Source: Eledone cirrhosa (Eukaryota). From it: DNA of 64,000 nucleotides. The stretch is taken from NCBI GenBank assembly GCA_964016885.1, contig OZ024740.1, positions 372,000,001 through 372,064,000 on the forward strand, given 5' to 3'. A program made the position numbers and the translations under genes. Numbering within the stretch: position 1 is the first letter of the stretch; each line of letters begins with the position of its first letter. Shown one piece after another: positions 667 to 54,700 of this stretch. The notes beneath the pieces are model-generated. The model did no database searches, was not told where the DNA came from, and saw nothing but the letters and a program-made list of their open reading frames with translations.

Positions 667-1008
667 GGAATTCCAACTTTGTCTGATTTACTCGTTTTAT
701 TTACAATCCTTTAAAATTATAATGATATTATAATGAAATAGTATGGTAGAATATTAAATGTTAAATGTTAATTGAAGAAGTACTTTCCTGCTTTCGCAAT
801 CCTCAGGATCATATTCAGTGGTGACACTGAAAAAATTGCAAACTTGACTGTTACCACTGAATATGAATCTGAAGATTACGAAAGCATGAAAGTACTTGTT
901 CAATTAACATTTAACATTTAATATTCTACCATACTATTTCATTATAATATCATTATAATTTTAAAGGATTGTAAATAAAACGAGTAAATCAGACAAAGTT
1001 GGAATTCC
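667..1008. repeat. ~160-bp inverted repeat (fold-back) with ~20-bp spacer
   Basis: 667-826 (ggaattccaactttgtctg...cagtggtgaca) is the near-perfect reverse complement of 849-1008. Confidence 0.9.
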
Positions 1009-1048: not shown

Positions 1049-1106
<58 letters not shown>

Positions 1107-1114
<8 letters not shown>

Positions 1115-1826
1115 TGAGTTAAGAACTCAGTAGTTGTTGACAAATTAGTGATCCTTTCACGTCTAAAAATATTAGAGAATGAATTGTGTACGATATGAAT
1201 TATCGCACGTGTCATTCGGAACACAGCTTGTTTCGAAATTCCCTGCCGCTAAAAATAGCAGCCTGGCTGACAGGACATTAAAAATTAGCACTACATGATG
1301 GAGCCGACAAATATATATTGAGTTAAGAACACAGAGTAGCCTCTTACAATTAAATAGCTCTAAGAAAAAAGCTTTTCCGAGCCGTACAATATAATTGAAC
1401 AAACAAGAGAGATGAACACTAATATAAACATACATGTGTTCGAATCGTAAGGATCAAATTTGCTAGGGTGAAAAAACACTAACTACAGCAATATGGTTTG
1501 TTATCCACAACTTTAAATATTAAACTAAGAAAAATTAAGAAAAATAACCGACCTATATTGGGAAAAATGCCTGGTAACAACTAGAAAGTATTGGAGACTG
1601 TTCGCAACGACTTATTAAGTGAAGTTCTCACGTTTCTCTGCTCCTCTGTAGTTGCTGAGAAATTAGTGATCCTTTCACTTCTAAAAATATTAGAGAATGA
1701 ATTGTGTACGATATCAATTATCGCACGTGTCATTCGGAACCCAGCTTGTCTCGAAATTCCCTGCCGCTAAAAATAGCAGCCTGGCTGACAGAACATTAAA
1801 AATTAGCTCTACATGATGGAGCTAGA
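1107..1826 (-). mobile_element. ORF-less partial-tandem element (~518-nt unit) with a degenerate hammerhead, pLTR/retrozyme-like
   Basis: 1131-1305 is repeated at 1649-1823. Bounded by (TA)n. Minus strand 1576-1656 reads agcaacta-CAGAGGA-gca..tgc-GAAc-agt..act-ttc-tagttgtt. Homologous to 1895-2601 and 17230-17560. Confidence 0.65.
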
Positions 1827-1837
1827 CAGTATTGGAG

Positions 1838-1894
<57 letters not shown>

Positions 1895-1900
<6 letters not shown>

Positions 1901-2601
1901 TAATATAAAAGAAAAAAGAACACAGACATATACATATATGTGTTCAAATCGTAAGGGACCTGATTCGCTAAGGTGAAAAGAATACAAACTATAGACAATA
2001 GGGTTCGCTTGTCTCAATTTAAGAACAAATTAAGAAAATATATACAAACCGGAATTGTGGTAACTACCAATCACCCAGACAACCTGTTGTTGTTTCGCAA
2101 AGTTAATTGTGAATAGAAATACCAATCCAAGCTCTTCAGTGGGTGATGAATTAGTATCCTAGATACATCTAAAGTATGCTATATATAAAATACATAAAAT
2201 ACCGCACATGGCATCCTACCGTGTCTCATAAACCGACACCACTAAAAATAGCAGCCAGGTTTACTCGACATTTGAAATAGCTCAATAAATTAATGGAGCC
2301 GAAAATATCAAAGGTATATATTGAGTTAGGAACTCAAAATAGTCTCTTACAATAAAATAGCTCTAAGAAAGAGATATTTCTGAGCCGTATATTATAATAT
2401 AAAAGCAAAAGAAAACACAGACGTATACATATATGTGTTCAAATCGTAAGGGACCTGATTCGCTAAGGTGAAAATAATACTAACTATAGACAATAGGGTT
2501 CGCTTGTCTCAATTTAAGAAAAAATTAAGAAAATAAATACAAACCGGAATTGTGGTAACTACCAATCACCCAGACAACCTGTTGTTGTTTCGCAAAGTTA
2601 A
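1895..2601 (-). mobile_element. ORF-less partial-tandem element (~495-nt unit) carrying a hammerhead
   Basis: 1901-2107 is repeated at about 2395-2601 (offset 495 at tcacccagac). One complete HHR and a second truncated copy. Confidence 0.75.
2070..2147 (-). ncRNA. Type I hammerhead ribozyme, canonical core
   Basis: Minus strand: atcaccca-CTGAAGA-gc...gc-GAAA-caac(aacag)gttg-TC-tgggtgat. 8-bp stem I, GUC cleavage triplet. Confidence 0.85.
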
Positions 2602-3220
2602 CGAGGAAAATTAATGAGGAAACACATCTGTATATGCAGAACGCCAATACAAACATTTTAATACCACTCCGTATGCAAATGAGATATATCGACTCATAAA
2701 CATAAGCAGAAGAAATCTATAAGATTCTAGCTTATTTTCGCCCCAGTGAAAGCAGGGAGATTTGTTTTCTTGATCACCACTGATACACGAGAAACGATGG
2801 CATTGTCGATTACTTCCTCCTGTTTTTGCTGAGGCTTGGTGTGGGACATTGGTCACAAATTTCAAAATTTATAGCGAAAGGCCTTCAAATGTTTTTCAGA
2901 AACATCCCGTGTATTATTCAATATACAATACGTACATATGTACACCGCTATCTAGGAGCACCAATACAAAACCTATGTATGTATGTATGTATGTATGTAT
3001 GTATGTATGTATGTATGTATGTCATGTATGTATGTATGTATGTATGTATGTATGTATGTATTTATAAATCCATGTATGTATAAATCCATGTATAAATCCA
3101 TACCGGGGTTCTACACGACTGGGGCAGTGATGGTTGTAGGTCACACCTACACACAATACAACATCCCAAAATACAGTTAGATGGATAGAAAGGAGAAAGA
3201 GAAGAATAGATAGATAGAGC

Positions 3221-12739: not shown

Positions 12740-12880
12740 TTAGGTTAGTAGGAGTTAGGTATTATATACCCGTGTCCCGTTAAGGTATTGGAGCATAATA
12801 ATTAGCTCTATGCTTTGGAGCAGAGCCGTATATATGAAAAAGAACACAAGAGCGTCTACAACATCAAAAGATTTTTATTG

Positions 12881-15994: not shown

Positions 15995-16546
15995 AATGAA
16001 GGTTTAGCAAATAAGAAAAAGTTTCAAAATAAAATTTAAAAAATTATCTTTACCTACTATAGTTACCTTTACCGAATCGGTTTCGAGTTTCAAAAATAAA
16101 CGACAACTGTTTCAAAGAAAGGCTCTCGTCAGAAGGATCTTTCCACTCGAAGAATATAAAATTCCCGAATTCAAATTACGAACTGGCGCTATTCAAAATT
16201 GTTCCCGAGATGAGAGTAAATGAAGTGGTATCAATTTTTTCAAGGGCCGTGTGTAAAGATAAGAGGCGGAGGCAGGGAGGTCAGTCGGCTACCGCTATAA
16301 CTAGCAGCAGTCAGAACGACCACATTTTTTTCTCAACCAAAAGGAGGTAATAATAATAGGGTATATGTTCCTACACACACAAGGCGCTAAGGGACACATG
16401 TATTGTCCAACCATATGTCAATGTGGTTCAATGGCAGGTTAATAAATTAAAGAGCCAGAACATATATAATGAAGGTTTAGCAAATAAGAAAAAGTTTCAA
16501 AATAAATTTTAAAAAATGAACTTTACCTACTATAGTTACCTTTACC

Positions 16547-17158: not shown

Positions 17159-17232
<74 letters not shown>

Positions 17233-17308
17233 TATATTTAGAGTTATAAACTCAAACAGTCCTTTACAATTAATTAGCTCAAAGAAAGAAGCATTTCTGA
17301 GCCGTGAA

Positions 17309-17763
17309 ATACAAGTTAATATAAATTAATATATGATAAACACAAAAGTGTTTGTATTGTAAAAGACGAAGTTAGCTGGAATGAAATAAACTAATTCAAA
17401 TAAATATAGTTTGCCTGTCTCGATTTAAAATAATAAATCAATAAAAACAAACCCATATTGGCAAATAGCCGTGGTACCTGGACAAATTTAAATTTCAAAA
17501 TCCAAAGCTGTTCCGCAGATAAATCCGAATTTCAAAATCCAAATAAGTTTCGCAACGATAGTATAAAAAGTGGATTTTGAAATTTAAATTTGTCCAGGTA
17601 CCACGGCTATTTGCCAATATGGGTTTGTTTTTATTGATTTATTATTTTAAATCGAGACAGGCAAACTATATTTATTTGAATTAGCTTATTTCATTCTAGC
17701 TAACTTCGTCTTTTACAATACAAACACTTTTGTGTTTATCATATATTAATTTATATTAACTTG

Positions 17764-17766
<3 letters not shown>
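17309..17766. repeat. ~196-bp inverted repeat of a member of the 1107/1895 family
   Basis: 17309-17504 vs 17571-17766 are nearly perfect. 17235-17310 matches 1315-1390 and 2320-2390. Confidence 0.9.
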
Positions 17767-17843
<77 letters not shown>

Positions 17844-18155: not shown

Positions 18156-19060
18156 CATATGGGATAACAAGTTATCGTTATAGGTATTCCAGTTAGAGGT
18201 TGTGAGTACCCTGCGTCGTGGATAGTTTTAACGTACGGCTTTGTTTGACTCAACAAGATGTTTCCATAGTTAGGCAGCGAGTTCGCAGTAATTCCTATGT
18301 AGGTTATACTTGGAGTAATAATAGTGAAAGAATAAAGAGTAACATGGTTGGCTGTACAATAAGGGGCTTTACTTCAAGTACTGACAATTGTTTCATTGAT
18401 CATGTGGGTCTAGAGGTCGCTAATCGCTTGAAGTTGCGTCACTCGATCTCCAATACATTATTTACCTCTGATCAACACATCAGAGTACGTAGATATAAAA
18501 ATAATTCACTCGAAGCAAGACGTATATAGAAGAATAGCGTATAATCAAAACAATAACACCAATAATAAAACATATATGGTAAATAGGTAAAGTTATAGAT
18601 GTAAAAATAAAAAGTAAAAAATAAGATAGGATACATTAAAAAAGTAACAAAATAAGAAAATGGAAAATATAAAGAAATAAATAAGGATAAGTGAGAGCAT
18701 GTAAGTACAGAGTATGTTTGTGGTGGTGGTGAGTAAGTGTTCTTATAAGGATTCTTTGGTGGGTTTAGTGCTAACATGAAAAAACCAAATTCGAAATATA
18801 CATAGATACGTGTAGAGAGTCTGGTGTAGTGACAGATAAAAGAAAAAAGAAAAAGCAATAAATTAGAGATTAATTGGGGGATGCAAGTATGAGATTTAAG
18901 GGCTAGGGGTGGATTGTGAAGGGAGGTTTGACAAACGTGTGTTGTAAATGTTTTGCTGATTGTTATATCATAATGGGGTTGATCAATGAAACAATTGTCA
19001 GTACTTGAAGTAAAGCCCCTTATTGTACAGCCAACAATGTTACTCTTCATTCTTTCACTA
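18156..19060 (-). mobile_element. ORF-less pLTR-like element with partial inverted terminal copy (family E)
   Basis: 18322-18402 is inverted at 18980-19060. Homologous to 61187-62103. Flanked by (TA)n. Confidence 0.75.
18378..18488 (-). ncRNA. Hammerhead with ~65-nt insert in stem II (core CUGAUGU)
   Basis: gtact-CTGATGT-gttgatca...tgatcaat-GAAA-caattg-TC-agtac. Confidence 0.75.
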
Positions 19061-23134: not shown

Positions 23135-24438
23135 CAGAGTGGGGCATAATTCCTGTTACAAAGTTTTAAATCAATTTAAAAATACATTATGTTGCTAATA
23201 TAACTAATATATTTGTATCAAATCCATGCACTATAACCATATTAACTATTTTTCAGAACATTACTCCATTAACAATTTGCAATGTCCATAGAATTGAAAA
23301 GAAAATTCATAATAGAGAAGCATGAAAAAGGCCTGACTCCACCCAAGATATTTAAATTGGGGAAAATTCTTAAGATCAATAGAATGTTGATCAAAAGGAC
23401 AATCGATCGATTTAAGGAAACTTCCTCGATCAAAGACAGACCTCGATCCAGACGCCCTCGCACCTCAAGAACACCAAAACTCGTTAAAAGTGTGAGGGAA
23501 AAAATAAGGCGTAATCCAAGAAGGTCCATGAGAAAAATGGCAGAAGAAGCAGAAACATCGCCGAGAACTATGCGGAGGATATGTCGAAATGATCTGGGGA
23601 TGTCACCCTATAAGTTCCAAAAGAGGGAGCTTCTTTCTGCAGCCACAATTGAAAAGAGGCTCTCCAGAAGTAAACTGTTATTGAACTGTATCAAGGATGG
23701 CACGCTGCAAAACATCATCTTTACAGATGAGAAGTTATTCACTGTGCAGCAGTTTCACAATCATCAAATTGATCGAGTACTTGCAAAAAGTCTCAAATCA
23801 ATTCCTTCAAGTGTAGGAAAAGTGTTCAGAACACAGAAACCAGCATCAGTGATGATTTGGGCAGCCATTTCTGAAAGAAGTAAGTCTCCTCTGATTTCTG
23901 TGCCTCAAGGAGTTAAAATTAACAAAGAACTTTACATAAAGTATATTTTGGAAGGAGCACTGATGCCATGGTCCATATCTGTTTATGGCGATGACATTTG
24001 GACTCTCCAACAAGATGGAGCGACGAGCTACACTGCTTGCATAACACAACAGTGGTGTAGAGACCATTGTCCTGCTTGGTTCAGTAAGGAAGAGTGGCCT
24101 CCCACATCACCAGATCTCAACCCTCTCGATTTTTCTTTATGGTCAATTCTTGAGAGTGAAACCTGCTCTACTCCTAGCCAAAATATTGAAACTCTAAAAT
24201 CAAAACTGAATAAAGTATGGGAGAAAATACCCATGGAAACTGTTCGTGCAGTCATCAAAGACTTTCCTAGAAGACTTCCAGCGGTGGTGAGAGTTAGAGG
24301 AAAGCATTTCGAATAAATTTTTGTGCAGTTGTTTAATAGTATATTACTTACTATTTGTTGAAGTCAGATCTTGAAATAAATGTTTTTTTCAAGAACTATT
24401 TTTATTTTATTTTGTAACAGTTTTTACGCCCCACCCTG
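23135..24438 (+). mobile_element. Full-length Tc1/mariner-superfamily DNA transposon, DD37D (maT-type), 1304 bp
   Basis: Imperfect ~28-bp TIRs CAGAGTGGGGCATAATTCCTGTTACAAA / CAGGGTGGGGCGTAAAAACTGTTACAAA (rc). TA on both sides. Confidence 0.93.
23282..24316 (+). CDS. DD37D transposase, 344 aa, uninterrupted
   Basis: N-terminal HTH region (DRPRSRRPRT, IRRNPRRSMRKMA). Catalytic IFTDEK, QQDGA, SPDLNPLDF with 37 residues between the second and third Asp. Confidence 0.93.
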   Translation: MSIELKRKFIIEKHEKGLTPPKIFKLGKILKINRMLIKRTIDRFKETSSIKDRPRSRRPRTSRTPKLVKSVREKIRRNPRRSMRKMAEEAETSPRTMRRICRNDLGMSPYKFQKRELLSAATIEKRLSRSKLLLNCIKDGTLQNIIFTDEKLFTVQQFHNHQIDRVLAKSLKSIPSSVGKVFRTQKPASVMIWAAISERSKSPLISVPQGVKINKELYIKYILEGALMPWSISVYGDDIWTLQQDGATSYTACITQQWCRDHCPAWFSKEEWPPTSPDLNPLDFSLWSILESETCSTPSQNIETLKSKLNKVWEKIPMETVRAVIKDFPRRLPAVVRVRGKHFE

Positions 24439-25416: not shown

Positions 25417-25624
<208 letters not shown>

Positions 25625-25825
25625 TTAGTTATACTATTTATGGTTATGTAAACACAAAACCTTAAGCAGTTGTAAGTATTTTACACACACCCTAAATAGT
25701 GGTAGGCAGTAATGTATTACTACCTTATTACCAGTAAGTTAAGTAGCTCAATGTAAAAACATCAGCTGATTTACAGAGCAGTTATATGAAATATAAGAAT
25801 CAAAGAACTATTCAAAACATTATTG

Positions 25826-25872
25826 TGCTTACAGCTGTTTCCTCCAAACCGAGGTTTGGATTCTTCGGAGCA
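25826..25872 (-). ncRNA. Minimal hammerhead, CCGAAGA core (3' pLTR of family A)
   Basis: tgct-CCGAAGA-atccaaacc(tc)ggtttggag-GAAA-cagctg-TA-agca. Confidence 0.8.
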
Positions 25873-27315
25873 ATTTATTAATGCATGGACAGTTATATGA
25901 CCTCCTTTTCAGCCGAGAGACATACCAATACATATTCAAACATTGATACATATTCAAACATTGTGGGTCAACATTCATTACAAAATTTAGAGTGGCAGTA
26001 CACACTTCGAGATTACATTTATATTAATAGGTACAATCAAAAATCAAAGATATAGGTTAAAGTACAACATGAAGATAAGTGGTTATATAGTGCAAATGTT
26101 ATATGTGTGGCACGCATGTGCGTCTTGTTTATATAGTGTGGCAGAGAGATATGTGTGGTAGAGGCACTTAGGTAGGTAAATAAGAGTGTTAGGTTGGTAG
26201 ATCTGGTGGCAAAGTCTTTATATGATTGATGTAGTCTGTGTGTGGAGAAATATTATAAGCATTAAAGATAGTGCAAGCATTAAAAGTGTTATAAGTATTG
26301 GAGATGCACAACGCAGGGATGTCAAGTAATTCATGTACTTCGGCATTTTCATGATCAAGGGAGTGTATATTTCGATTATATGCCTTTCATATAATCCACG
26401 ACAATCCAGTTAGAGATCGTAGTCTGGTGTTCTTTAGTTCGATACAGGAGGTTGTTACGTTTCGAGAGACGCCATTGAATACCGGAAGTGTGTGTGTGGC
26501 TAAGGGGAGTTAATGCATGCGGGGAGGTAACTCTGGGGTTTCTATATCTAGCCATTAAAATGTGTCCCAATATGGACCCTAAATTCTATGGTGAGGTGCA
26601 CCCTCCAAGAGAGACTTTTAAAGCATAAAGTGTACTAACTATAGAGTAGTTTAACTAAATTATGCTGAAGGTGATCATATTATTATTAAGGTGGATTAAC
26701 CCATCTTAAGGTGCTACAAATGGAAATTATAGATGATGAGCGAGGATTCTAAATTAATGATCTCTGTGGTTGTAGTCTGCTCATATGACCAGGCGCGGTG
26801 ATTGCAGGATTGCTTCAGGACCCAATGATCTCTGGTAAGATCTGGGTCATCGCTTGCTACATTGGATGTCGAAAGATAATCGTCCCCAGGCAGGCCAAAG
26901 GTCAATCCGCAGTCCTCGCGACCCCTCTCTGACCGTCAGATCATCCATATACGTACAACCCGCACGGCAGTTGCATTGCATTCACTCACTGCGCTCAGCA
27001 GCCCGGTCCTACTGGTCAACAGCGCTACTCGATTAAATCATTTTACATCTGTCTAAGGAAGGTGTTTCCTCTGCCCAACACCATCCAACCGATCAATTCA
27101 TGCTCAAATTACCCTTAGAGCGGTGTAGTGCCGTCCAGGTGGGTGGATGTTGTCACACCTGCCGTAGAGGTATAAATGGGTATTTTCCCTGCGAAGGGTT
27201 CCAGATGGATGTCGTTGTTTGTGTTATAATGGATCAGCTAGTGTTGGGTATGTAGTATAGGGTGTGTCTCTGGTGTTTGATGCTAGATGTGGTGTTAGGT
27301 TCCAGTCCGACATTG

Positions 27316-29775
27316 CTATATATAGGGCTTAAAGTTTTGGAAGGAATGTCTGAGGCGGTGTTGGCAAGTTGCAAACACCTCAGATTTTTTGTTAAGTAGG
27401 TTACGGTTGGAGAAGATAATATTGTGTGTCTCTAGTATACAGAGGTTACAGAATTTATTAGGTGGTTTGTACGAGGTCGCGCTGCCTATCACTTCCCATT
27501 TGAGTGTGTATGGTTTATTTTTAGATTTTAGATAGTGTATGTAGCTAGAAAGTGAGGTGGAGTTGGCTAGGCTGTGCTTTTTGAACGAGTGGATGTGCGA
27601 GTTATATCTAATTTTGAAGCAGTTAGAAGTGGAGCCTACATAGGTTTCTGAAGAGTTATTAGTCGTGACTGTGCATGAGTATATGACATCCTTGGTTAGG
27701 CATTTTTTATCTAAAGGGCAGGTTCTATTAGCTCTACAGTTACAATTATTCTGTGCGTTAGTCCGCTGGTTATAATGCAATGCGGAAGTCTGTGTGGTGG
27801 ATATAGGATTTTGGGTGTTCAGGTTGACAACCCTGGTGTTATTACTTATACTAGTGTTATTTCTATTGTTACTGCCGTTGCTATTGTTGCTTGCTACAGT
27901 GGTATTTAGAGGGTTTGCATCCCGTTGTGATTTTGTTTGTTGGAAGTAAGAACTAATTTTACTATTATTGCTGCTAGCTATGTGGTATGCTAAGTTAGGT
28001 GTCGTAGAGTATGAGATTTTAATGGTGTTTTTGTTTAAGAGGTTGTGGTACTTGTGTCCTAGAGGGAAGTTTTTATCTAGTAGTGAGAAGAAAGCCCTAG
28101 GTATGTTGGTGGAGACATTTAGGTTGAAAGGAGGGTTGAAAAATGTATTATTTCTTCTTCTATTTTTGCTTTTAGTGTTTGGTGTGTTGCTTCCTCCTAA
28201 GGCCTCACAGTAGTTTCCATGGTAATGGTTACTTCTGGTGGCACTCTCCGCTTTGGTGTACTTGTGGTTGCTATTCCTATTATTAGATTTCCTCATGGAC
28301 ATGTTGTGCGAGATGATGTTGTAGCTATGTGTTTTCTTAGGTAGGAACTCTATTTCTATATTATGGCCGGAGCTAGCTAATGCTTGATTGTAATATTGTG
28401 AGTTTTTGCTAAATATGTTTGCGTCATAGGACAGACTAGAGATTCTATTGGACACCCCCTTAGAGATAGAGTTTAATATTGATCTAGGGTGATTAGACTT
28501 GGTATCTACGTAAATAAGTTTCTCATTAGGCTTATGGAAAGGTGTATATATTTTTGAGTCTAGGTATAGTGTGGCGTCTAGGAAGTTAACATTTTTAGTG
28601 TTTTTGTCCATGGTGATACTAAGGTTAAAGTTTTTGAATGTCTTATGCAGTTGTTTTCTAGTTCTTTCTATATTAAATTTTTTATATTCTATGAGTAGAA
28701 GTGCATCATCGCGGTACAAACCACCGTTGAGGTAAGGGAGGTCTTTATGGATTTCATTGAGGAGGTATAGGCCGACCAAATCAGTGACCTGCGCCGAGTC
28801 ACTAGATCCCATGGTTATGTCGAAGTTGTTGTGCGTATCCTTGCGTGTCCATAGTTGGTCCTCGAAGGTGATTATGGTTTTACGGGCCGCAAGGATGACA
28901 TCAACCTGGGCTCTAGTCAGGTCGCTATTGGTCATGGCCATGATAAGTGCCTTATTTAATAGGATAGGGGAAATAGAGGTGTAGTATGAATTGATATCAA
29001 ATTGAATAAATTTTTTGTTCTTATTATTCTTGATATCCTTAAACCATTCAATTACTTCACCCGTATTTCCCCATTGTTTAAGGTGTATCTTGTGTTTAAT
29101 TTGTGGGATGATTTTATCCAAAATCTTCTTGCTGATAATACCAATGTCGGACTTGGAAGGGCAGATAAGTCTTATCGTGGGGTTGCTGATGAAGTTCTCC
29201 TTATGGTCCTTCAGAGAGAATCTAGGGGGGTTCGGAGTGAAAGGTTGTGTATGCCTCTGTAGTCCTAGTTTAGACACTATATTATAACCCTCTACATTAA
29301 TATCTTCTAAGTTTTTCAAGGTGGTTTTTTTGTAGCTTTTATGTAGTTCATTATATATAAACTTTCTATAAGTAATATAATCTAGGCTGTATATGTTATT
29401 AGTTTTATCTGCGTGTACAATAATTTTATTACTAGTTTTGAATCCACTAATAGAAGTGTTAAGTTTGTTTAAGAAGGTGTTGCTTCTAATATGGTGCTTA
29501 TTGTATTTAATGTTCTTAACTAGTTTAACTAGGTCATTTTCAAAGGAGTTAAGTAGAGTGTTATGAGGGGGGCTTTTAAAGGTTTTAAAGCCGAAGGAGT
29601 CAAAATTGTTAGTATTATTCAAGTTGTTAGATTTGTTTCTATCATAATGGAATGTCCTCCATCTCACTCTATTGATAAATGAATTTACACTGTTGATCAG
29701 CAATTTCTCATATGTATTCCTGGATGGTATTGGTATGTTCTTGGTTGACATGGGGAGTTGGTCTTTGATTAGCAT
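27316..29775 (-). CDS. PLE reverse transcriptase + GIY-YIG endonuclease, 819 aa
   Basis: ADKT; RT motifs QFDINSYYTSI, TMGSSDS, LYRDD, NFLDATL; SNHP thumb; CNCR-x4-CPL-x3-CL Cys linker; VIYSC..YVGST..FKIRYNSH; CNLCILE..LNKKSE..CQH. Architecture resembles the Hydra-type PLE group (inference). Confidence 0.95.
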   Translation of the reverse strand: MLIKDQLPMSTKNIPIPSRNTYEKLLINSVNSFINRVRWRTFHYDRNKSNNLNNTNNFDSFGFKTFKSPPHNTLLNSFENDLVKLVKNIKYNKHHIRSNTFLNKLNTSISGFKTSNKIIVHADKTNNIYSLDYITYRKFIYNELHKSYKKTTLKNLEDINVEGYNIVSKLGLQRHTQPFTPNPPRFSLKDHKENFISNPTIRLICPSKSDIGIISKKILDKIIPQIKHKIHLKQWGNTGEVIEWFKDIKNNKNKKFIQFDINSYYTSISPILLNKALIMAMTNSDLTRAQVDVILAARKTIITFEDQLWTRKDTHNNFDITMGSSDSAQVTDLVGLYLLNEIHKDLPYLNGGLYRDDALLLIEYKKFNIERTRKQLHKTFKNFNLSITMDKNTKNVNFLDATLYLDSKIYTPFHKPNEKLIYVDTKSNHPRSILNSISKGVSNRISSLSYDANIFSKNSQYYNQALASSGHNIEIEFLPKKTHSYNIISHNMSMRKSNNRNSNHKYTKAESATRSNHYHGNYCEALGGSNTPNTKSKNRRRNNTFFNPPFNLNVSTNIPRAFFSLLDKNFPLGHKYHNLLNKNTIKISYSTTPNLAYHIASSNNSKISSYFQQTKSQRDANPLNTTVASNNSNGSNNRNNTSISNNTRVVNLNTQNPISTTQTSALHYNQRTNAQNNCNCRANRTCPLDKKCLTKDVIYSCTVTTNNSSETYVGSTSNCFKIRYNSHIHSFKKHSLANSTSLSSYIHYLKSKNKPYTLKWEVIGSATSYKPPNKFCNLCILETHNIIFSNRNLLNKKSEVFATCQHRLRHSFQNFKPYI

Positions 29776-30024
29776 ATTGGCAATATTATATGTCAGCTCA
29801 ACGATATGGAGCAGTTAATAGTATTAGTTATACTATTTATGGTTATGTAAACACAAAACCTTAAGCAGTTGTAAGTATTTTACACACACCCTAAATAGTG
29901 GTAGGCAGTAATGTATTACTACCTTATTACCAGTAAGTTAATTAGCTCAATGTAAAAACATCAGCTGATTTACAGAGCAGTTATATGAAATATAAGAATC
30001 AAAGAACTGTTCAAAACATTATTG

Positions 30025-30071
30025 TGCTTACAGCTGTTTCCTCCAAACCGAGGTTTGGATTCTTCGGAGCA
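30025..30071 (-). ncRNA. Minimal hammerhead, CCGAAGA core (5' pLTR of family A)
   Basis: Identical to 25826-25872; ~250 nt upstream of the ORF ATG. Confidence 0.8.
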
Positions 30072-30622
30072 ATTTATTAATGCATGGACAGTTATATGAC
30101 CTGTGTGAAAGGCATATAATCGAAATATACACTCCCTTGATCATGAAAATGCCGAAGTACATGAATTACTTGACATCCCTGCGTTGTGCATCTCCAATAC
30201 TTATAACACTTTTAATGCTTGCACTATCTTTAATGCTTATAATATTTCTCCACACACAGACTACATCAATCATATAAAGACTTTGCCACCAGATCTACCA
30301 ACCTAACACTCTTATTTACCTACCTAAGTGCCTCTACCACACATATCTCTCTGCCACACTATATAAACAAGACGCACATGCGTGCCACACATATAACATT
30401 TGCACTATATAACCACTTATCTTCATGTTGTACTTTAACCTATATCTTTGATTTTTGATTGTACCTATTAATATAAATGTAATCTCGAAGTGTGTACTGC
30501 CACTCTAAATTTTGTAATGAATGTTGACCCACAATGTTTGAATATGTATCAATGTTTGAATATGTATTGGTATGTCTCTCGGCTGAAAAGGAGGTCATAT
30601 AACTGTCCATGCATTAATAAAT

Positions 30623-30669
30623 TGCTCCGAAGAATCCAAACCTCGGTTTGGAGGAAACAGCTGTAAGCA
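30623..30669 (+). ncRNA. Minimal hammerhead, CCGAAGA core (inverted pLTR of family A)
   Basis: Identical motif on the + strand. Confidence 0.8.
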
Positions 30670-30700
30670 CAATAATGTTTTGAACAGTTCTTTGATTCTT

Positions 30701-30740
<40 letters not shown>

Positions 30741-35820: not shown

Positions 35821-38800
35821 CATGGAAAGTTATATTTAAATTGTTGGGTTACAACTAGTAAATATTTATAACTGATATAAAAGCACTCGACAAGTATTTG
35901 GAGTATATTTACAATATTAAATAAATGGAAACTATATTTATAAAACCATATTTATTTCATTATATATATTTCAGGGATATCATATTAACAATATGCTATG
36001 CCTTCCTCAGACAAAATACAATATAAACAGTTTTATAGATAAATAGATTTGACATACCGTAACAACATCGACTTATATTTGAAAAGTTGAATTGGCAGTG
36101 AAAAGATTGTACACAGAGAGAAAGAAAGAGAGAAAAGGAAAGAAAGACAGAAAACGAAGAAAAAGAAGAAACAAAAGAAGAAATGCATGGAACAAAATAG
36201 AGAGATGGAAAGATAGATAAAGAGAAGAACTTCATGTAAAGAAACAGAGAGATATATATATATATATAGAGAGAGGAAATAGAGATAGATACATATATAT
36301 AGAAAACTAGGTAGTGGGACGTCCGTTGAGTAAACGTATCAATGATACATTTATTTATTTATTTATTTATTTAGCTCTAGTATTAATGTAAGGGAGATAT
36401 ATGTGGTTAGGAAAGAAACCAGCTGTTATATAGAGAGACAAATTAAAAATAACCAGACATAGGCGAGGCATAAAACCCTATGTTTTAATGTAGAGGTATT
36501 AGTATGTATAAAAACCAGCCACTATATTGTAAATATTAGTATTCCTGAATGAGACATGTATCCATAATGTGTGAAAAGTAATGATCTTATGTTTAGTTTT
36601 TTTTAAAAATTCATATGTTTATGTGATAAACATCTATGTGAATTTACATGATCAACTCTGTAAACCCTAAGTTCACGGAAACTCTAACCACCCCAGATCT
36701 GTCAAAAACACTATAGTAAACTCTGTTCAAAAACGTATCTCTAGGATCTCGTCGAATAGAAAGATTTTCGACGAAAAAGCCCAATACTACAATGAAGCAT
36801 TAGCTAGAGCAGGATATGCTGATAAGATTATGTACATAGATAATGATAGACAAACTAAACAAAATAACAACTATTTTAATTACGGCAACAACCTTAACAA
36901 CTATAATAGAAAGCATTACAATAATTCCAAAGGCCAAAAAAGAAATAGAACTAGGAACATAATTTGGTTTGCCCCCCCCCCCCCCCCCTTTCTCACTAAA
37001 CATTAAAACCCACATCGCTAAACTATTTTTTAAAGCTCTTGATAATCGCTTCCCTAGAACACATAGGTATCACTCAATTTTCAATAGACATACAATAAAA
37101 TTAACCTACTCATCCACCAAAAATTTAGCACAAAATATTAATAGAATAAATAATAGGAACTTAAAACCTAGTGATAATAGCATAAATAATATACAAGTTA
37201 ACAAATGTAACTGTAGAGATAGATCTAAATGTCCGTTAAATAACAACTGCTTAGTTAAAAATATAGTATACAATTGTAATGTTAAAACTGACTCTAATTC
37301 TTTTAACTACGTCGGTTCCACATCGACGGAATTTAAACTTCGCTATAATAACCACAAGAATTCTTTCACAGATCCAAGCAAAAAATCTTCAACGGCACTA
37401 TCAGGCGTACTCTGGCAACTTAAGCTAGATAACGTTAGATATTCGACGGCTTGGAATATAGTCTCAAGAGGGATTCCTTTTAATTCATCCTCTGAGACAT
37501 GTGACCTCTGCGCAGAGGAGATATTCTTTATACTAAAATCTAAAAATTCCCTTAATCTACGGACAAATTTATTCAGTTGCTGCAAACATAGATTAAACTC
37601 AACGTTTAAATATAAATTTAAATTTAAAATGTAGTATATTTAGTTTGATTTATAATTATATGGGAAACTAGCCGATAAATCTTTGATTTCTTCTTTTTAT
37701 TCTTTTTATTTTTATTTTTATTTTTATTTAAACATTCTTCACGAAAAATTAAGCTACCCTAAAAGTTGATGCTCCAAATATTTCGAATAAACGTTACACT
37801 AGATAAACTTCTATATTAAATATAAGAACACATGTAGACCAAATGGGCATCCTAAACTTTTTGAAATGATCTTTGCTAGATGCGATTTGATAAATAATTT
37901 TTGGCTTTATCTGTTTTTCGACTCTGATGCTTATAATGAACTTGGCAATATATTGTCAATTAATTTTGAAGGGTTGATCTTTGTGGTTTATTTTTATTAT
38001 TGTAGTATTTTCTAATATTTTTATTTTTAATATTTTTAATATGTAATATTTTTAATATGTAATATTTTTAATATGTAATATTCTTTCGTAATATTTTTTA
38101 GTTTTCTATTTTATTATTACTTATTATTATTATTATTGTTATTTTTTGGTTTTTGTTTCTGATATATGTTTTTATTAGTATATTGAAATCTGCTCTCTAT
38201 TTCTGCTTGATAGATAATCTTGTAGAGTAAAGACAGGAATAGTAGTAATATTGACTCTATATATATTTGTGTGTATATATATACACATATATGTATACTT
38301 AAATTTTTATAGCACAATGAAAATATTTTCCGTGAACTTAGGGTTTACAGAGTTGATCATGTAAATTCACATAGATGTTTATCACATAAACATATGAATT
38401 TAAAAAAAAAACTAAACATAAGATCATTACTTTTCACACATTATGGATACATGTCTCATTCAGGAATACTAATATTTACAATATAGTGGCTGGTTTTTAT
38501 ACATACTAATACCTCTACATTAAAACATAGGGTTTTATGCCTCGCCTATGTCTGGTTATTTTTAATTTTTCTCTCTATATAACAGCTGGTTTCTTTCCTA
38601 ACCACATATATCTCCCTTACATTAATACTAGAGCTAAATAAATAAATAAATAAATAAATAAATGTATCATTGATACGTTTACTCAACGGACGTCCCACTA
38701 CCTAGTTTTCTATATATATGTATCTATCTCTATTTCCTCTCTCTCTATATATATATATATCTCTCTCTGTTTCTTTACATGAAGTTCTTCTCTTTATCTA

Positions 38801-39099
38801 TCTTTCCATCTCTCTATTTTGTTCCATGCATTTCTTCTTTTTTTTCTTCTTTTTCTTCGTTTTCTGTCTTTCTTTCCTTTTCTCTCTTTCTTTCTCTCTG
38901 TGTACAATCTTTTCACTGCCAATTCAACTTTTCAAATACAAGTCGATGTTGTTACGGTATGTCAAATCTATTTATCTATAAAACTGTTTATATTGTATTT
39001 TGTCTGAGGAAGGCATAGCATATTGTTAATATGATATCCCTGAAATATATATAATGAAATAAATATGGTTTTATAAATATAGTTTCCATTTATTTAATA
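35821..39099 (+). mobile_element. 5'-truncated PLE (family C) with ~770-bp inverted arms
   Basis: 35915-36681 is inverted at 38327-39099. Central ORF remnant. Confidence 0.9.
36671..37634 (+). pseudogene. PLE thumb + GIY-YIG remnant, frameshift at poly-C (~36973-36988)
   Basis: VHGNSNHP..YYNEALARAGY..; CNCRDRSKCPLNNNCL, IVYNC..YVGST..FKLRYNNH, CDLCAEE. Confidence 0.9.
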
Positions 39100-39177: not shown

Positions 39178-39237
39178 TTTCATTTACCAGTGGTTTCTTA
39201 AAAGCAAAAGGTTTTGCTTTCAATCCTCAGAATGAAA
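39178..39237 (-). ncRNA. Type I hammerhead, canonical CUGAGGA (family D outer, left arm)
   Basis: Reverse complement of 43812-43871. Confidence 0.85.
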
Positions 39238-40309: not shown

Positions 40310-40486
40310 ATATTAAATAAATGGAAACTATATTTATAAAACCATATTTATTTCATTATATATATTTCAGGGATATCATATTAAAAATATGTCATGCCTT
40401 CTTCAGACAAAATACAATATAAACAGTCTTATAAATAGATAGATTCGACATACCTTTCAACTTCGACTTCTATTTGAAAAGTTGAT

Positions 40487-43811: not shown

Positions 43812-43871
43812 TTTCATTCTGAGGATTGAAAGCAAAACCTTTTGCTTTTAAGAAACCACTGGTAAATGAAA
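43812..43871 (+). ncRNA. Type I hammerhead, canonical CUGAGGA (family D outer, right arm)
   Basis: tttcatt-CTGAGGA-ttgaaagcaaaa(cc)ttttgcttttaa-GAAA-cca(c)tgg-TA-aatgaaa. Confidence 0.88.
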
Positions 43872-49999: not shown

Positions 50000-51718
50000 G
50001 GCTTTGCAGCACAAACAGAAACAAAGGCTACAATAGTAGCCGTGATAAGAAAACTATTGAAAGAAAGAAGAAGGAATATGTAGAATGAAAATTTAGAAAA
50101 CCAAATAAAAAAAAATAAAAAAAAATAAAAAAAAATAAAACAAAATATAACAACAGGCAGTTTGGCAGTAAAAGAATAAGGAAATAAGTTACAATAAAAC
50201 AGACTCTGCTATAAACGTCTCGAACGGAAGTAAGAGGCAATATTGATATTAGCTGAGCGCAAAGGGAGATCAATACGATGTGTATTGGACGAATGCCAGT
50301 TGTTGTTTTCAGCATGCAAGCTTGTAATGGAATGTGAATAAATTAATCTTCAACCAGACACAGCACCTTAGCTCTCTTAAATTCAAACCACATGCAAATG
50401 AACGTGCAAGCACGCTTATACACGAAGCTTCGTCAACACATACACTTACACAAATATACAGACATAACGGAGAAACACCCAGATATACTCAAACAGATAT
50501 GCATAATATTGATATACGTGAATCTCAAACACGCACATCATTCACCCACGTACAAAGGTTGAATGATATATAATGTGATAAATCACGCCAAGCATCTATA
50601 CACCTATACGTTCGGCTTCTATCTATTCCTACAAGATAAACAAATACACATACATACGTAGAACACATACATACGTAGACACACATAAATACACACATAA
50701 ACTAACACACAAATTCACACACGTATCTATATGTGTGTATGTATGTATGTATGTATGTATGTATGTATGTATGTATGTATGTATGTATGTATGTATGTAT
50801 GTATGTATGTATGTATGTATGTATGCATGTATGTATGTATGTTACTATGTATGCATGTGTTTGTGTATATATGTAGGTGTGGAAAGTTAAAGAGACTGAG
50901 TTCCAAACGGTGTTTAATATACGCAATGTATATTTTCAGCCTTCAAATTGCTTTGCAAATGTACTAATCCTGGGATTACAGCCTTTCAGAAGTATGCTTG
51001 AAAACCCGTGGGATGTTAACTCTACAACCGGACCCCTCGCGATGTAGACCTGTAAAAATTAATACTTACTGAACTGTATAAAGAAACTGTATTAAACTGT
51101 CGCAACGCCGAATAGATGAAGCGAAATTTGTGATATATATGAGACGAATTATCAATTCATATATATGTTTTCTTTTGTATGTGGGTGAAATGTGGTGTGA
51201 TTTTCGTATGTATTATCTTGAGGGTGCGTACATGTGCTTTTGTATGCATCATATATGTATGTATGGCGCGCATGCGCATTTCGTTTGCTTCGCTTTTAAT
51301 AATCATTAGCATAACTGCTCTATTTTCTTTTGAAAGAGCTGACTCAGGAAGTTAATATGATTACCGATTTCTGACTTAAGCACAAGGCCATACGATTAAC
51401 TGGTACTTTATTCTATCAAAGTTGTAATATAATTATTGAAACTTAATAACCTTATTTGGCTGCAAACTCGCTTTGTTTACGATTAAATTGATTGTTTCGT
51501 ACTTATATGAAATAAAGCTATAACAAAATTATTAGAATTCATTTAATGTTTTCAGTGTCGGAGGGTAGGTCTAGTGTATGATTTTGTAGCAGCTATAACA
51601 CTATTTAAACTGTTTTTCAAAGACTAGGTTTTCTGCATAGGACCAGAAACTATTTCAGTTCTGGCCCTTTGCAGTTCATCAATTCATGAGCGTAGAGTAT
51701 TACTTGCATATACGGGAA

Positions 51719-54700
51719 AGCCTGATCTAGAACGATTCATGCTCCTCTGAACTACCACGTTGTATAAACTCGCGTTATAGTTATAGCCTGATCTAGAACG
51801 ATTCACGCTCCTCTGAACTCCACGTTGTATAAACTCGCGTTATAGTTATAGCCTGATCTAGAACGATTCACGCTCCTCTGAACTACCACGTAGTATAAAC
51901 TCGCGTTATAGTTATAGCCTGATCTAGAACGATTCACGCTCCTCTGAACTCCACGTTGTATAAACTCGCGTTATAGATATAGCCTGATCTAGAACGATTC
52001 ACGCTCCTCTGAACTCCACGTTGTATAAACTCGCGTTATAGCTATAGTTTGATCTAGAACGATTCACGCTCCTCTGAACTCCACGTTGTATAAACTCGCG
52101 TTATAGTTATAATTTGATCTAGAACGATTCATGCTCTTCTGAACTACCACGTTATATAAACTCGCGTTATAGCTATAGTTTGATCTAGAACGATTCATGC
52201 TCCTCTGAACTACCACGTTGTATAAACTCGCGTTATAGTTATAATTTGATCTAGAACGATTCATGCTCCTCTGAACTACCACGTTGTATAAACTCGCGTT
52301 ATAGTTATAATTTGATCTAGAACGATTCATGCTCCTCTGAACTACCACGTTATATAAACTCGCGTTATAGTTATAATTTGATCTAGAATGATTCATGCTC
52401 CTCTGAACTACCACGTTGTATAAACTCGCGTTATAGTTATAATTTGATCTAGAACGATTCATGCTCCTCTGAACTACCACGTTGTATAAACTCGCGTTAT
52501 AGTTATAGTTTGATCTAGAATGATTCATGCTCCTCTGAACTACCACGCTGTATAAACTCGCGTTATAGTTATAATTTGATCTAGAACGATTCATGCTCCT
52601 CTGAACTACCACGTTGTATAAACTCGCGTTATAGTTATAATTTGATCTAGAACGATTCATGCTCCTCTGAACTACCACGTTGTATAAACTCGCGTTATAG
52701 TTATAGTTTGATCTAGAATGATTCATGCTCCTCTGAACTACCACGCTGTATAAACTCGCGTTATAGTTATAATTTGATCTAGAACGATTCATGCTCCTCT
52801 GAACTACCACGCTGTATAAACTCGCGTTATAGTTATAATTTATAATTTGATCTAGAATGATTCATGCTCCTCTGAACTACCACGTTGTATAAACTCGCGT
52901 TATGGTTATAGTTTGATCTAGAATGATTCATGCTCCTCTGAACTACCACGCTGTATAAACTCGCGTTATAGTTATAATTTGATCTAGAATGATTCATGCT
53001 CCTCTGAACTACCACGTTATATAAACTCGCGTTATAGTTATAATTTGATCTAGAATGATTCATGCTCCTCTGAACTACCACGTTGTATAAACTCGCGTTA
53101 TAGTTATAATTTATAATTTGATCTAGAATGATTCATGCTCCTCTGAACTACCACGTTGTATAAACTCGCGTTATAGTTATAATTTGATCTAGAATGATTC
53201 ATGCTCCTCTGAACTACCACGTTATATAAACTCGCGTTATAGTTATAATTTGATCTAGAATGATGCATGCTTCCCTGAACTACCACGCTGTATAAACTCG
53301 CGTTATACTTATAATTTATAATTTGATCTAGAATGATTCATGCTCCTCTGAACTACCACGTTGTATAAACTCGCGTTATAGTTATAATTTGATCTAGAAT
53401 GATTCATGCTCCTCTGAACTACCACGTTATATAAACTCGCGTTATAGTTATAATTTGTTCTAGAATGATTCATGCTCCTCTGAACTACCACGTTATATAA
53501 ACTCGCGTTATAGTTATAATTTGATCTAGAATGATTCATGCTCCTCTGAACTACCACGTTATATAAACTCGCGTTATAGTTATAATTTGATCTACAATGA
53601 TTCATGCTCCTCTGAACTACCACGCTGTATAAACTCGCGTTATAGTTATAATTTATAATTTGATCTAGAATGATTCATGCTCCTCTGAAATACCACGCTG
53701 TATAAACTCGCGTTATAGTTATAATTTATAATTTGATCTAGAATGATTCATGCTCCTCTGAACTACCACGTTGTATAAACTCGCGTTATAGTTATAATTT
53801 GATCTAGAATGATTCATGCTCCTCTGAACTACCACGTTATATAAACTCGCGTTATAGTTATAATTTGATCTAGAATGATTCATGCTCCTCTGAACTACCA
53901 CGTTATATAAACTCGCGTTATAGTTATAATTTGATCTAGAATGATTCATGCTCCTCTGAACTACCACGTTATATAAACTCGCGTTATAGTTATAATTTGA
54001 TCTAGAATGATTCATGCTCCTCTGAACTACCACGCTGTATAAACTCGCGTTATAGTTATAATTTATAATTTGATCTAGAATGATTCATGCTCCTCTGAAC
54101 TACCACGCTGTATAAACTCGCGTTATAGTTATAATTTATAATTTGATCTAGAATGATTCATGCTCCTCTGAACTACCACGTTGTATAAACTCGCGTTATA
54201 GATATAGCCTGATCTAGAACGATTCACGCTCATCTGAACTCCACGTTGTATAAACTCGCGTTATAGCTATAGTTTGATCTAGAACGATTCACGCTCCTCT
54301 GAACTCCACGTTGTATAAACTCGCGTTATAGCTATAGTTAGATCTAGAACGATTCATGCTCCTCTGAACTACCACGTTGTATAAACTCGCGTTATAGTTA
54401 TAATTTGATCTAGAACGATTCATGCTCCTCTGAACTACCACGTTGTATAAACTCGCGTTATAGTTATAATTTGATCTAGAACGATTCATGCTCCTCTGAA
54501 CTACCACGTTATATAAACTCGCGTTATAGTTATAATTTGATCTAGAATGATTCATGCTCCTCTGAACTACCACGCTGTATAAACTCGCGTTATAGTTATA
54601 ATTTATAATTTGATCTAGAATGATTCATGCTCCTCTGAACTACCACGTTGTATAAACTCGCGTTATAATTATAATTTGATCTAGAACGATTCATGCTCCT

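What the first reader, a model, noticed from the sequence alone, without database searches (positions are those of the whole stretch)
1107..2601. Two adjacent, diverged ~500-nt ORF-less units with partial tandem repeats and one HHR per unit
Seen: units of 518 nt and 495 nt, each about 1.4 copies long, mutually homologous but cut at different registers (circularly permuted ends). The 2070 HHR has a perfect 8-bp stem I. The 1576 relative has a different stem I sequence that still pairs. A third relative lies at 17230-17766. Inference: permuted 1.x-mer insertions are what reverse transcription of a circular or multimeric RNA would give, i.e. a retrozyme-like family.
Basis: partly seen in the sequence, partly recalled or inferred. 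Interest (0 to 1): 0.72.

Follow-up and report, generated by a model that had tools for sequence, protein, structure and literature searches.

The report
Hammerhead mini-elements with Penelope start signals
These are two copies of abundant ~500-base non-coding repeats that carry a predicted self-cutting RNA fold and end at two fixed points beside a small hairpin shared with a Penelope-type jumping gene in the same genome, which likely copies them; the ends are fixed rather than shuffled, and an RNA circle remains untested.

Summary
The observation largely holds. A (495-nt unit, 1.42 copies) and B (518-nt unit, about 1.35 copies plus two short pieces) lie on the minus strand. A carries a type I hammerhead; B's copy is mutated here but intact in relatives. 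The 'permuted ends' reading fails. In 110 loci of three related families, 167 of 198 arms end at one of two homologous sites 78-83 nt apart, mostly at (TA)n, while 5' ends scatter. In 50 of 52 back-to-back arm pairs with both ends fixed, one arm ends at each site. This is the Penelope-like element (PLE) 'tail' signature. A GCUC...GAGCU hairpin follows both sites in A, B, C and in a young Hydra-type PLE at 25621-30712. Hammerhead stems covary between families; family C uses a U3-A8 core. Best reading: non-autonomous PLE passengers (non-LTR retrozyme class), likely copied by Hydra-type reverse transcriptase priming internally from both ends of a (TA)n break. A circular template is open (about 45%); no RNA run was listed. 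The exact partner was not found. This scan found the same class before on other DNA of this genome.

The parts
1897..2601 (-). Element A: 1.42 copies of a 495-nt unit; 3' end at start site 1 against (TA)n; 5' end truncated inside the hammerhead
2070..2147 (-). Complete type I hammerhead of A (8-bp stem I, CUGAAGA, 2-bp stem II with 32-nt loop, GAAA, 5-bp stem III, GUC; predicted cut after 2078)
2565..2601 (-). 3' half only of a second hammerhead in A (upstream pass)
   Evidence: sequence
2359..2388 (-). A start site 1 (2388) and the GCUC...GAGCU hairpin 3' of it (2385-2359)
2279..2305 (-). A start site 2 (2305) and its hairpin (2299-2279); 2387-2305 is the 83-nt tail
   Evidence: (loose TA ends at 2305)
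1108..1840 (-). Element B: 518-nt unit, about 1.35 copies, plus a 23-nt site-2 end piece (1108-1130) and a 17-nt hammerhead piece (about 1824-1840) joined across deletions; 3' end at site 2 against (TA)n
1576..1656 (-). Hammerhead of B, core mutated in this copy; intact in 11 of 35 relatives' copies scored
1311..1389 (-). B start site 1 (1389), hairpin 1382-1356, and start site 2 (1311); 78-nt tail. Site-2 hairpin of the upstream pass at 1822-1805
1058..1107 (.). (TA)n target at the 3' end of B
1841..1892 (.). (TA)n between B's 5' end and A's 3' end
17230..17768 (.). Family C copy: two back-to-back arms; left arm (minus) ends at site 2, right arm (plus) ends at site 1, both at (TA)n; site-1 hairpin at 17302-17276
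25621..30712 (-). Young Hydra-type PLE (4199-nt unit; open frame 27316-29814, about 811 aa from MSTKN) with the same twin-arm, (TA)n, two-site anatomy (164-nt tail); candidate class of enzyme donor
29795..29982 (-). The PLE's start sites 1 (29982) and 2 (29818), each followed by a GCUC...GAGCU hairpin (29978-29944, 29812-29795)

Best explanation
A, B and C are three related families of ORF-less 495-560-nt repeats with a conserved hammerhead fold and two fixed 3' ends at (TA)n, likely non-autonomous passengers of Hydra-clade Penelope-like elements (the non-LTR retrozyme class). Inferred mechanism: the unit RNA carries two GCUC...GAGCU hairpins 78-83 nt apart that would each position a PLE reverse transcriptase. 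The endonuclease would cut (TA)n, and each broken DNA end would pair with a short AU run just 5' of a hairpin and prime cDNA internally, one end at site 1 and the other at site 2. The two cDNAs would stop at variable points and join, giving back-to-back arms or a single 5'-truncated arm. Arms pass through the hammerhead cut site and into the previous unit (shown), so the template must be either an uncut tandem transcript or a cut and re-ligated circle. I put these near even (55:45). Shown: fixed ends, arm pairing, (TA)n flanks, hairpin positions, covariation, lack of ORF. Inferred: cleavage activity, transcription, which enzyme, hairpin function, template form.
For: Ends: 83 of 100 A arms (54 loci), 36 of 45 B arms (28 loci) and 48 of 53 C arms (28 loci) end within 10 nt of site 1 or 2, against 2-4 expected per site; 151 of these 167 ends abut TA; only 7 of 198 5' ends lie near the sites. 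The C query ended at site 2, so its site-2 count is selected. Pairing: of 74 back-to-back arm pairs, 52 have both outer ends at a site, and 50 of the 52 have one at each. Craig et al. 2021 describe 5' truncation, partial tandems, inverted 5' copies and a tail at one end for PLEs, and (TA)n targets for Hydra (PMC8557442; passages and section 11). Frangieh et al. 2024 tie the tail to two internal RT start sites and extension of both strands (PMC11167929; parts 1-2 of 4). Shared signal: GCTC-N6..36-GAGCT occurs 15 times in the window against 1.9 expected (0 of 100 shuffles reach 15); five matches sit at start sites of A, B and C and three at those of the PLE. A second Hydra-like family has GCTC...GAGC after its end site (L051). 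The PLE has RWR, DKT, CxCx5C, CxxC and CxH, as listed for Hydra, and its 40 scored copies are mostly 99-100% alike. Hammerhead: in 30 core-intact A and B copies 97.6% of cells pair and 6 of 15 pairs change on both sides; slid controls pair 23-43%. Family C has U3 with A8 in 19 of 19 copies and an A-U/G-C swap in stem I; natural U3-A8 cores are reported (Perreault 2011, PMC3088659, passages).
Against: No autonomous PLE with an A/B/C-like pLTR was found: one pattern search gave one spurious match, and the units share only about 21 nt (the hairpin, E 0.14) with the window's PLE. That PLE is younger (99-100%) than A and B (83-95%), so it cannot be their own donor; it could serve C (96-99%). The hairpin also occurs in at least two PLE families, so it names a clade, not a partner. 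No hammerhead was found in this PLE, although Craig et al. report them in Hydra elements. In the anole PLE the RT start site is not homologous to the cut DNA, whereas AU pairing with the target is inferred here. The covariation set was chosen for intact cores and reflects about three lineages, not 30 events; for 'pairs with a change on both sides' 90 of 500 shuffles reached the observed value. Only 36 of 68 A and 11 of 35 B hammerhead copies are intact. Cleavage and expression are untested. Each genome search scored only the best 40 of 432-2991 candidates.
Confidence: 0.82

Rival explanations
1. One reading: copies come from reverse transcription started at random points on a circular or multimeric RNA, giving permuted ends.
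For: A and B end at different registers in the window; arms exceed one unit (up to 2.1 in A and 2.3 in B); the hammerhead is conserved.
Against: 167 of 198 arms end at two sites; the two window copies use one site each.
Confidence: 0.03
2. Sub-hypothesis within the best explanation: the template is a hammerhead-cut, ligated monomer circle round which both enzymes run (the Cervera and de la Pena model), with fixed internal priming.
For: Tandem passes within an arm differ less than loci do (A 5.1% vs 7.9%; B 5.0% vs 7.9%, C 1.4% vs 2.9%). Loci do not share pass-specific differences as a diverged linear source would give (same vs opposite polarity: A 31 vs 44 after removing an alignment artefact; B 25 vs 22; C 0 vs 0). 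25 locus-private variants are shared by both inverted arms. The A unit folded as a circle has z = -3.1 against 40 shuffles with the hammerhead left free. The hammerhead is kept by compensatory change in all three families.
Against: A young linear source with identical repeats gives the same patterns. Arms rarely pass 1.5 units. B folds only at z = -1.7. The Hydra-type PLE without a detected hammerhead also makes arms longer than one unit. In vitro, hammerhead cleavage was not needed and uncut RNA was the main substrate for the anole PLE. No A-to-G editing marks that could tag a single template molecule (3 A>G vs 10 T>C among 50 shared variants).
Confidence: 0.45
3. The units are solo pseudo-LTRs or truncated 3' ends of a long autonomous PLE, not an element of their own.
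For: They have pLTR order (hammerhead, site 1, site 2). PLE ORF pieces abut the 5' junction in 3 of the first 60 loci (L022, L024, L048). Li et al. 2026 derive retrozymes from pLTRs.
Against: 88 of 198 arms continue upstream through site 2 into another copy of the same unit; 5' ends show no shared exit point; the three abutting ORF pieces are not alike at DNA level. Origin from a pLTR stays possible.
Confidence: 0.1
4. The template is the hammerhead-cut linear monomer, and longer arms arise by template jumps.
For: 5' ends are somewhat denser just 3' of the cut (9 of 51 in q24-53); L027 and L044 begin at the cut.
Against: No sharp pile-up: of 19 TA-joined A starts within 30 nt, read by eye, about 2-4 fall at the cut, 6 include bases 5' of it and 9 lie 6-9 nt 3' of it; 4 of 7 B starts include the GUC. 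No control region was searched.
Confidence: 0.05

Closest known systems
Metazoan non-LTR retrozymes (Cervera and de la Pena 2020, PMC7229834: part 2 of 6, passages and Discussion read; Li, Clavereau and Pollet 2026, bioRxiv 10.64898/2026.07.22.740005: parts 1-3 of 5 read)
   Same: Non-coding, low-GC (33-35%) units with a type I hammerhead, in tandem and dispersed copies, in a genome that holds PLEs.
   Different: Units of 495-560 nt (above the 170-400 nt of Cervera, within Li's 51-972 nt); mostly under 2 units; 32-36-nt loop II and, in C, a long stem III and a U3-A8 core. Two fixed ends, asymmetric twin arms and a shared start hairpin are not described in the parts read. Circles are shown there and untested here.
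Hydra-clade Penelope-like elements (Craig et al. 2021, PMC8557442: passages and section 11 read)
   Same: (TA)n targets, 5' truncation, partial tandems, inverted 5' arms, a tail at one end; same start hairpin as the Hydra-type element in the window.
   Different: No ORF; unit about one eighth the length; tail 78-83 nt against 30-40 nt described and 164 nt in the window's element.
Poseidon PAc of Anolis (Frangieh et al. 2024, PMC11167929: parts 1-2 of 4 read)
   Same: Order hammerhead, site 1, site 2; two internal RT start sites at a stem-loop explain the tail; AT-rich target; both strands extended.
   Different: PAc is autonomous; its start site is not homologous to the target, while AU pairing is inferred here; here one arm uses each site in 50 of 52 pairs.
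Non-autonomous Chlamys elements such as MRC1 (Craig et al. 2021, passage read)
   Same: Non-autonomous PLE passengers with pLTRs and head-to-tail copies.
   Different: They resemble their partners along the 3' end and the clade mostly lacks hammerheads; here only a short hairpin is shared.

Membership tests
Non-LTR retrozyme | Type I hammerhead in each repeat unit | tested here: met
   (family level; the window's B copy is mutated)
Non-LTR retrozyme | Short non-coding low-GC unit, no LTR-element features | tested here: met
   GC 33-35%; no frame over 93 codons, no PLE protein hit; PBS and PPT not searched
Non-LTR retrozyme | Tandem copies with two consecutive complete hammerheads | tested here: met
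   e.g. L004, L010, L013, L016; not met by the window's own A or B copy
Non-LTR retrozyme | Self-cleavage in vitro | not testable with these tools
   bench test
Non-LTR retrozyme | Expressed as monomeric circular RNA | not testable with these tools
   no RNA holder listed
Non-autonomous Penelope-like element | Fixed 3' ends with an optional tail; variable 5' truncation | tested here: met
Non-autonomous Penelope-like element | Partial tandems and inverted 5' copies | tested here: met
Non-autonomous Penelope-like element | Sequence shared with an autonomous partner's 3' end | tested here: inconclusive
   only the start hairpin is shared; no partner with a matching pLTR found
Hydra-clade PLE (element at 25621-30712) | RWK, DKT, CxCx5C linker, CxxC and CxH motifs; C-terminal GIY-YIG | tested here: met
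   motif scan, (RWR in place of RWK); Pfam gave no hit; no tree built
Hydra-clade PLE (element at 25621-30712) | Insertion into (TA)n | tested here: met
   all 20 loci fetched have a site-2 end at TA; the query itself ended at site 2
Hydra-clade PLE (element at 25621-30712) | Canonical hammerhead in the pLTR | tested here: not met
   relaxed scan of 25601-27330 found none; filed as Hydra-type, not as a proven member
Solo pLTR of an autonomous PLE | Upstream sequence leads into an RT/EN ORF | tested here: not met
   88 of 198 arms run into another unit copy; ORF pieces abut in 3 of 60 loci and are unlike each other

The most novel reading that the evidence does not exclude
A PLE reverse-transcriptase dimer binds two small hairpins on one hammerhead-made RNA circle and copies it from both ends of a (TA)n break. 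The hairpin is a portable, clade-level start signal of about 20-30 nt that lets unrelated RNAs hitch onto Hydra enzymes, and one insertion can draw on two different RNAs (retrozyme/PLE chimeras at L103 and L105).
Probability: 0.3. Interest if true: 0.75.

Novelty: new member of a known kind. Interest (0 to 1): 0.48.

Why it matters
PLEs have been proposed as the mobilisers of animal retrozymes from co-occurrence and pLTR similarity. These families give a footprint and a handle: two mapped start sites, a 50-of-52 rule that each arm uses a different site, and a hairpin shared with a young, intact Hydra-type element. That makes the donor clade, the role of the hairpin and the circle-versus-linear question testable in an in vitro assay of the kind already published for an anole PLE. 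The elements themselves belong to a described class and are common in this genome.

Tried and rejected
Rfam: no hammerhead hit at gathering score over the window or at E up to 10 over 1000-2700. RNA: no RNA holder listed; three runs of unknown kind, one sample, contigs only show inversions, the tandem joint and TA loose ends at site 2, but nothing on expression. A-to-I editing scars (lead from note e1-8803865): no A>G excess in A, B or C. Pile-up of 5' ends at the hammerhead cut: not sharp, and no control region was searched. Shared pass-specific variants: a first excess in A (244 vs 89) came from misalignment at q189-202 and vanished when q165-216 was dropped (31 vs 44). Partner search by hairpin plus Hydra N-terminal codons: one spurious match. 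Pfam on seven window PLE-like frames: no hit. Protein Atlas: sequence not held. A's 5' flank as a second arm of the same event: it is an older, different repeat; rejected. The B site-1 pattern matched only one place and was not used; the other fractions there are lower bounds. The motif extraction caught only 10 hammerheads per family and was replaced. Paper searches listed no paper describing fixed two-site ends or a shared start hairpin in animal retrozymes; the library lacks most subscription journals, and I read no supplements (those of the Li preprint are closed; those of Craig and Cervera may list related families). The search terms 'octopus' and 'cephalopod' were my guess at the host; the host was not tested.

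Full report
Observation. Window 1107-2601 holds two related elements on the minus strand, separated by (TA)n. A (2601 to 1897) is 1.42 copies of a 495-nt unit; the repeat is 96% identical. B (about 1840 to 1108) has a 518-nt period over 1126-1823 (170 of 180 identical) and two short pieces joined across internal deletions. A and B are 74-77% alike and the copy at 17230-17768 is 68-69% alike to both. A has one complete type I hammerhead at 2147-2070 and the 3' half of another. B's hammerhead keeps its stem I but has three core changes in this copy. Rfam misses both. No unit holds a frame over 93 codons or matches the window's PLE protein.

Families. Searches of the window's own 3.0-Gb genome gave 2961, 2232 and 2991 first-look candidates for A, B and C; 40 were scored and 30 loci fetched each time, plus 30 loci from an 89-nt A query with 432 candidates. 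After removing duplicates and window self-hits I analysed 54 A, 28 B and 28 C loci. Scored A and B matches are about 83-95% alike to the window's copies; C is younger, 96-99%, with a unit near 560 nt.

The ends are fixed. 83 of 100 A arms, 36 of 45 B arms and 48 of 53 C arms end within 10 nt of one of two sites, against 2-4 expected per site; 151 of these 167 ends abut TA, and 7 of 198 5' ends lie near the sites. C's site-2 count is favoured by its query. The sites are homologous across families and 83, 78 and 83 nt apart. Of 74 back-to-back arm pairs, 52 have both outer ends at a site and 50 of those have one at each. With the short query, 42 of 51 arms are under one unit, so 1.4-mers are the long tail of a truncation series. 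This anatomy matches PLE insertions (Craig 2021) and the two internal RT start sites mapped in vitro for the anole PLE (Frangieh 2024).

Not solo pLTRs. 88 of 198 arms run upstream through site 2 into another copy of the same unit, and 5' ends share no exit point. PLE ORF pieces abut the 5' junction in three of the first 60 loci and are not alike at DNA level. In L103 and L105 an A or B arm and a PLE arm point away from each other with (TA)n at or near both outer ends and none at the joint. That may be one event on two RNAs, or nested insertion with deletion; I could not tell.

The hammerhead is maintained. In 30 core-intact A and B copies, 97.6% of cells pair and 6 of 15 pairs change on both sides, against 23-43% pairing for slid controls. 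These changes reflect about three lineages, and the pair-count measure does not beat the shuffle (90 of 500). Family C has U3 with A8 in 19 of 19 copies, an 8-bp stem I with an A-U/G-C swap, and a long G-U-rich stem III. Natural U3-A8 cores are known and such cores are active in vitro (Perreault 2011). Inserted copies decay: 36 of 68 A and 11 of 35 B hammerheads are intact.

Link to Hydra-type PLEs. GCTC-N6..36-GAGCT occurs 15 times in the window against 1.9 expected. It lies a few bases 3' of both sites in A, B and C and of both sites in the PLE at 25621-30712. That element has an 832-codon open frame with the motifs listed for Hydra, the same twin-arm and (TA)n anatomy, and copies 99-100% alike. 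A second Hydra-like family shows the hairpin too (L051). At each site the element reads ...AUAU or ...UAUA, matching the target, so priming by short pairing is inferred. Beyond the hairpin the units share nothing with this PLE, and a pattern search for a partner with an A/B/C-type hairpin before a Hydra start found none. The donor is therefore named to clade, not to family.

Circle or linear. Arms cross the hammerhead cut site, so the template was uncut or re-ligated. 5' ends do not pile up sharply at the cut. Tandem passes within an arm are closer to each other than loci are, and loci share no pass-specific differences; both arms share private variants. This fits one monomer read repeatedly, and also a young homogeneous linear source. 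The A circle folds well with the hammerhead free (z = -3.1), B less so (z = -1.7). Against the need for a circle: the Hydra-type element, with no hammerhead found, also makes arms longer than one unit, and cleavage was dispensable in vitro for the anole PLE. No editing marks were found and no RNA run was listed. I put the circle at 45%.

Comparison and novelty. The families meet the sequence criteria for non-LTR retrozymes (Cervera 2020; Li 2026) and the insertion criteria for non-autonomous PLEs; cleavage and circles are untested. Those papers propose PLE mobilisation and a pLTR origin. In the parts I read and the searches I ran I found no description of two-site ends, the one-arm-per-site rule or the shared hairpin for retrozymes. 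Earlier notes of this scan report the same class several times on other DNA of this genome; a sequence look-up with unit A returned none. Verdict: a new member of a known kind, with useful and testable mechanistic marks; interest 0.48.

Noticed in passing
window 2660-2970: An older repeat family (76-83% to relatives, 1101 candidates, period about 335 nt in tandem copies) abuts A's 5' end; relatives carry GAGCTGATGAAACTC, a hammerhead-like half core, on the minus strand.
   Followed up: partly
window 668-1008: About 340-nt palindrome between (TA)n runs, with CTGAGGA/CTGAAGA followed closely by GAAA in each arm; looks like another twin-arm element with a minimal hammerhead core (by eye).
   Followed up: no
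window 16070-16132, 35961-36010, 39004-39053, 39185-39230, 40357-40406, 43819-43864: Six further type I hammerhead-like motifs of three sequence types, all with long stem or loop II, several near PLE endonuclease fragments.
   Followed up: no
L103 (G000:C3:274243000-274249000), L105 (G000:C2:117141000-117146500), L104 (G000:C2:378690500-378696500): A or B arms joined at their 5' ends, without (TA)n, to arms of ORF-bearing PLEs; possible two-RNA insertions.
   Followed up: partly
window 12804-12826 (-) and 51317-51340 (+): Two more GCTC...GAGCT hairpins in the same context (ATATACGGCTC, TAACTGCTC), probably start signals of other PLE-related families.
   Followed up: partly
L051:860-1000; window near 18160-18400: A second Hydra-like family (MSLKNVP...IRWKA) whose end site is followed by a GCTC...GAGC hairpin; its terminal region recurs in the window (window match by eye).
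   Followed up: partly
window 51723-57306: 66-bp satellite, 83 copies, 93% matches, with a 271-bp higher period.
   Followed up: no
window 23273-24316 (+): 347-codon open frame that resembles a Tc1/mariner transposase (recalled, not tested).
   Followed up: no
L106:4654-6221: A 99%-identical tandem and inverted array with period about 317 nt between (TA)n runs, likely the young 310-nt family of earlier notes.
   Followed up: no
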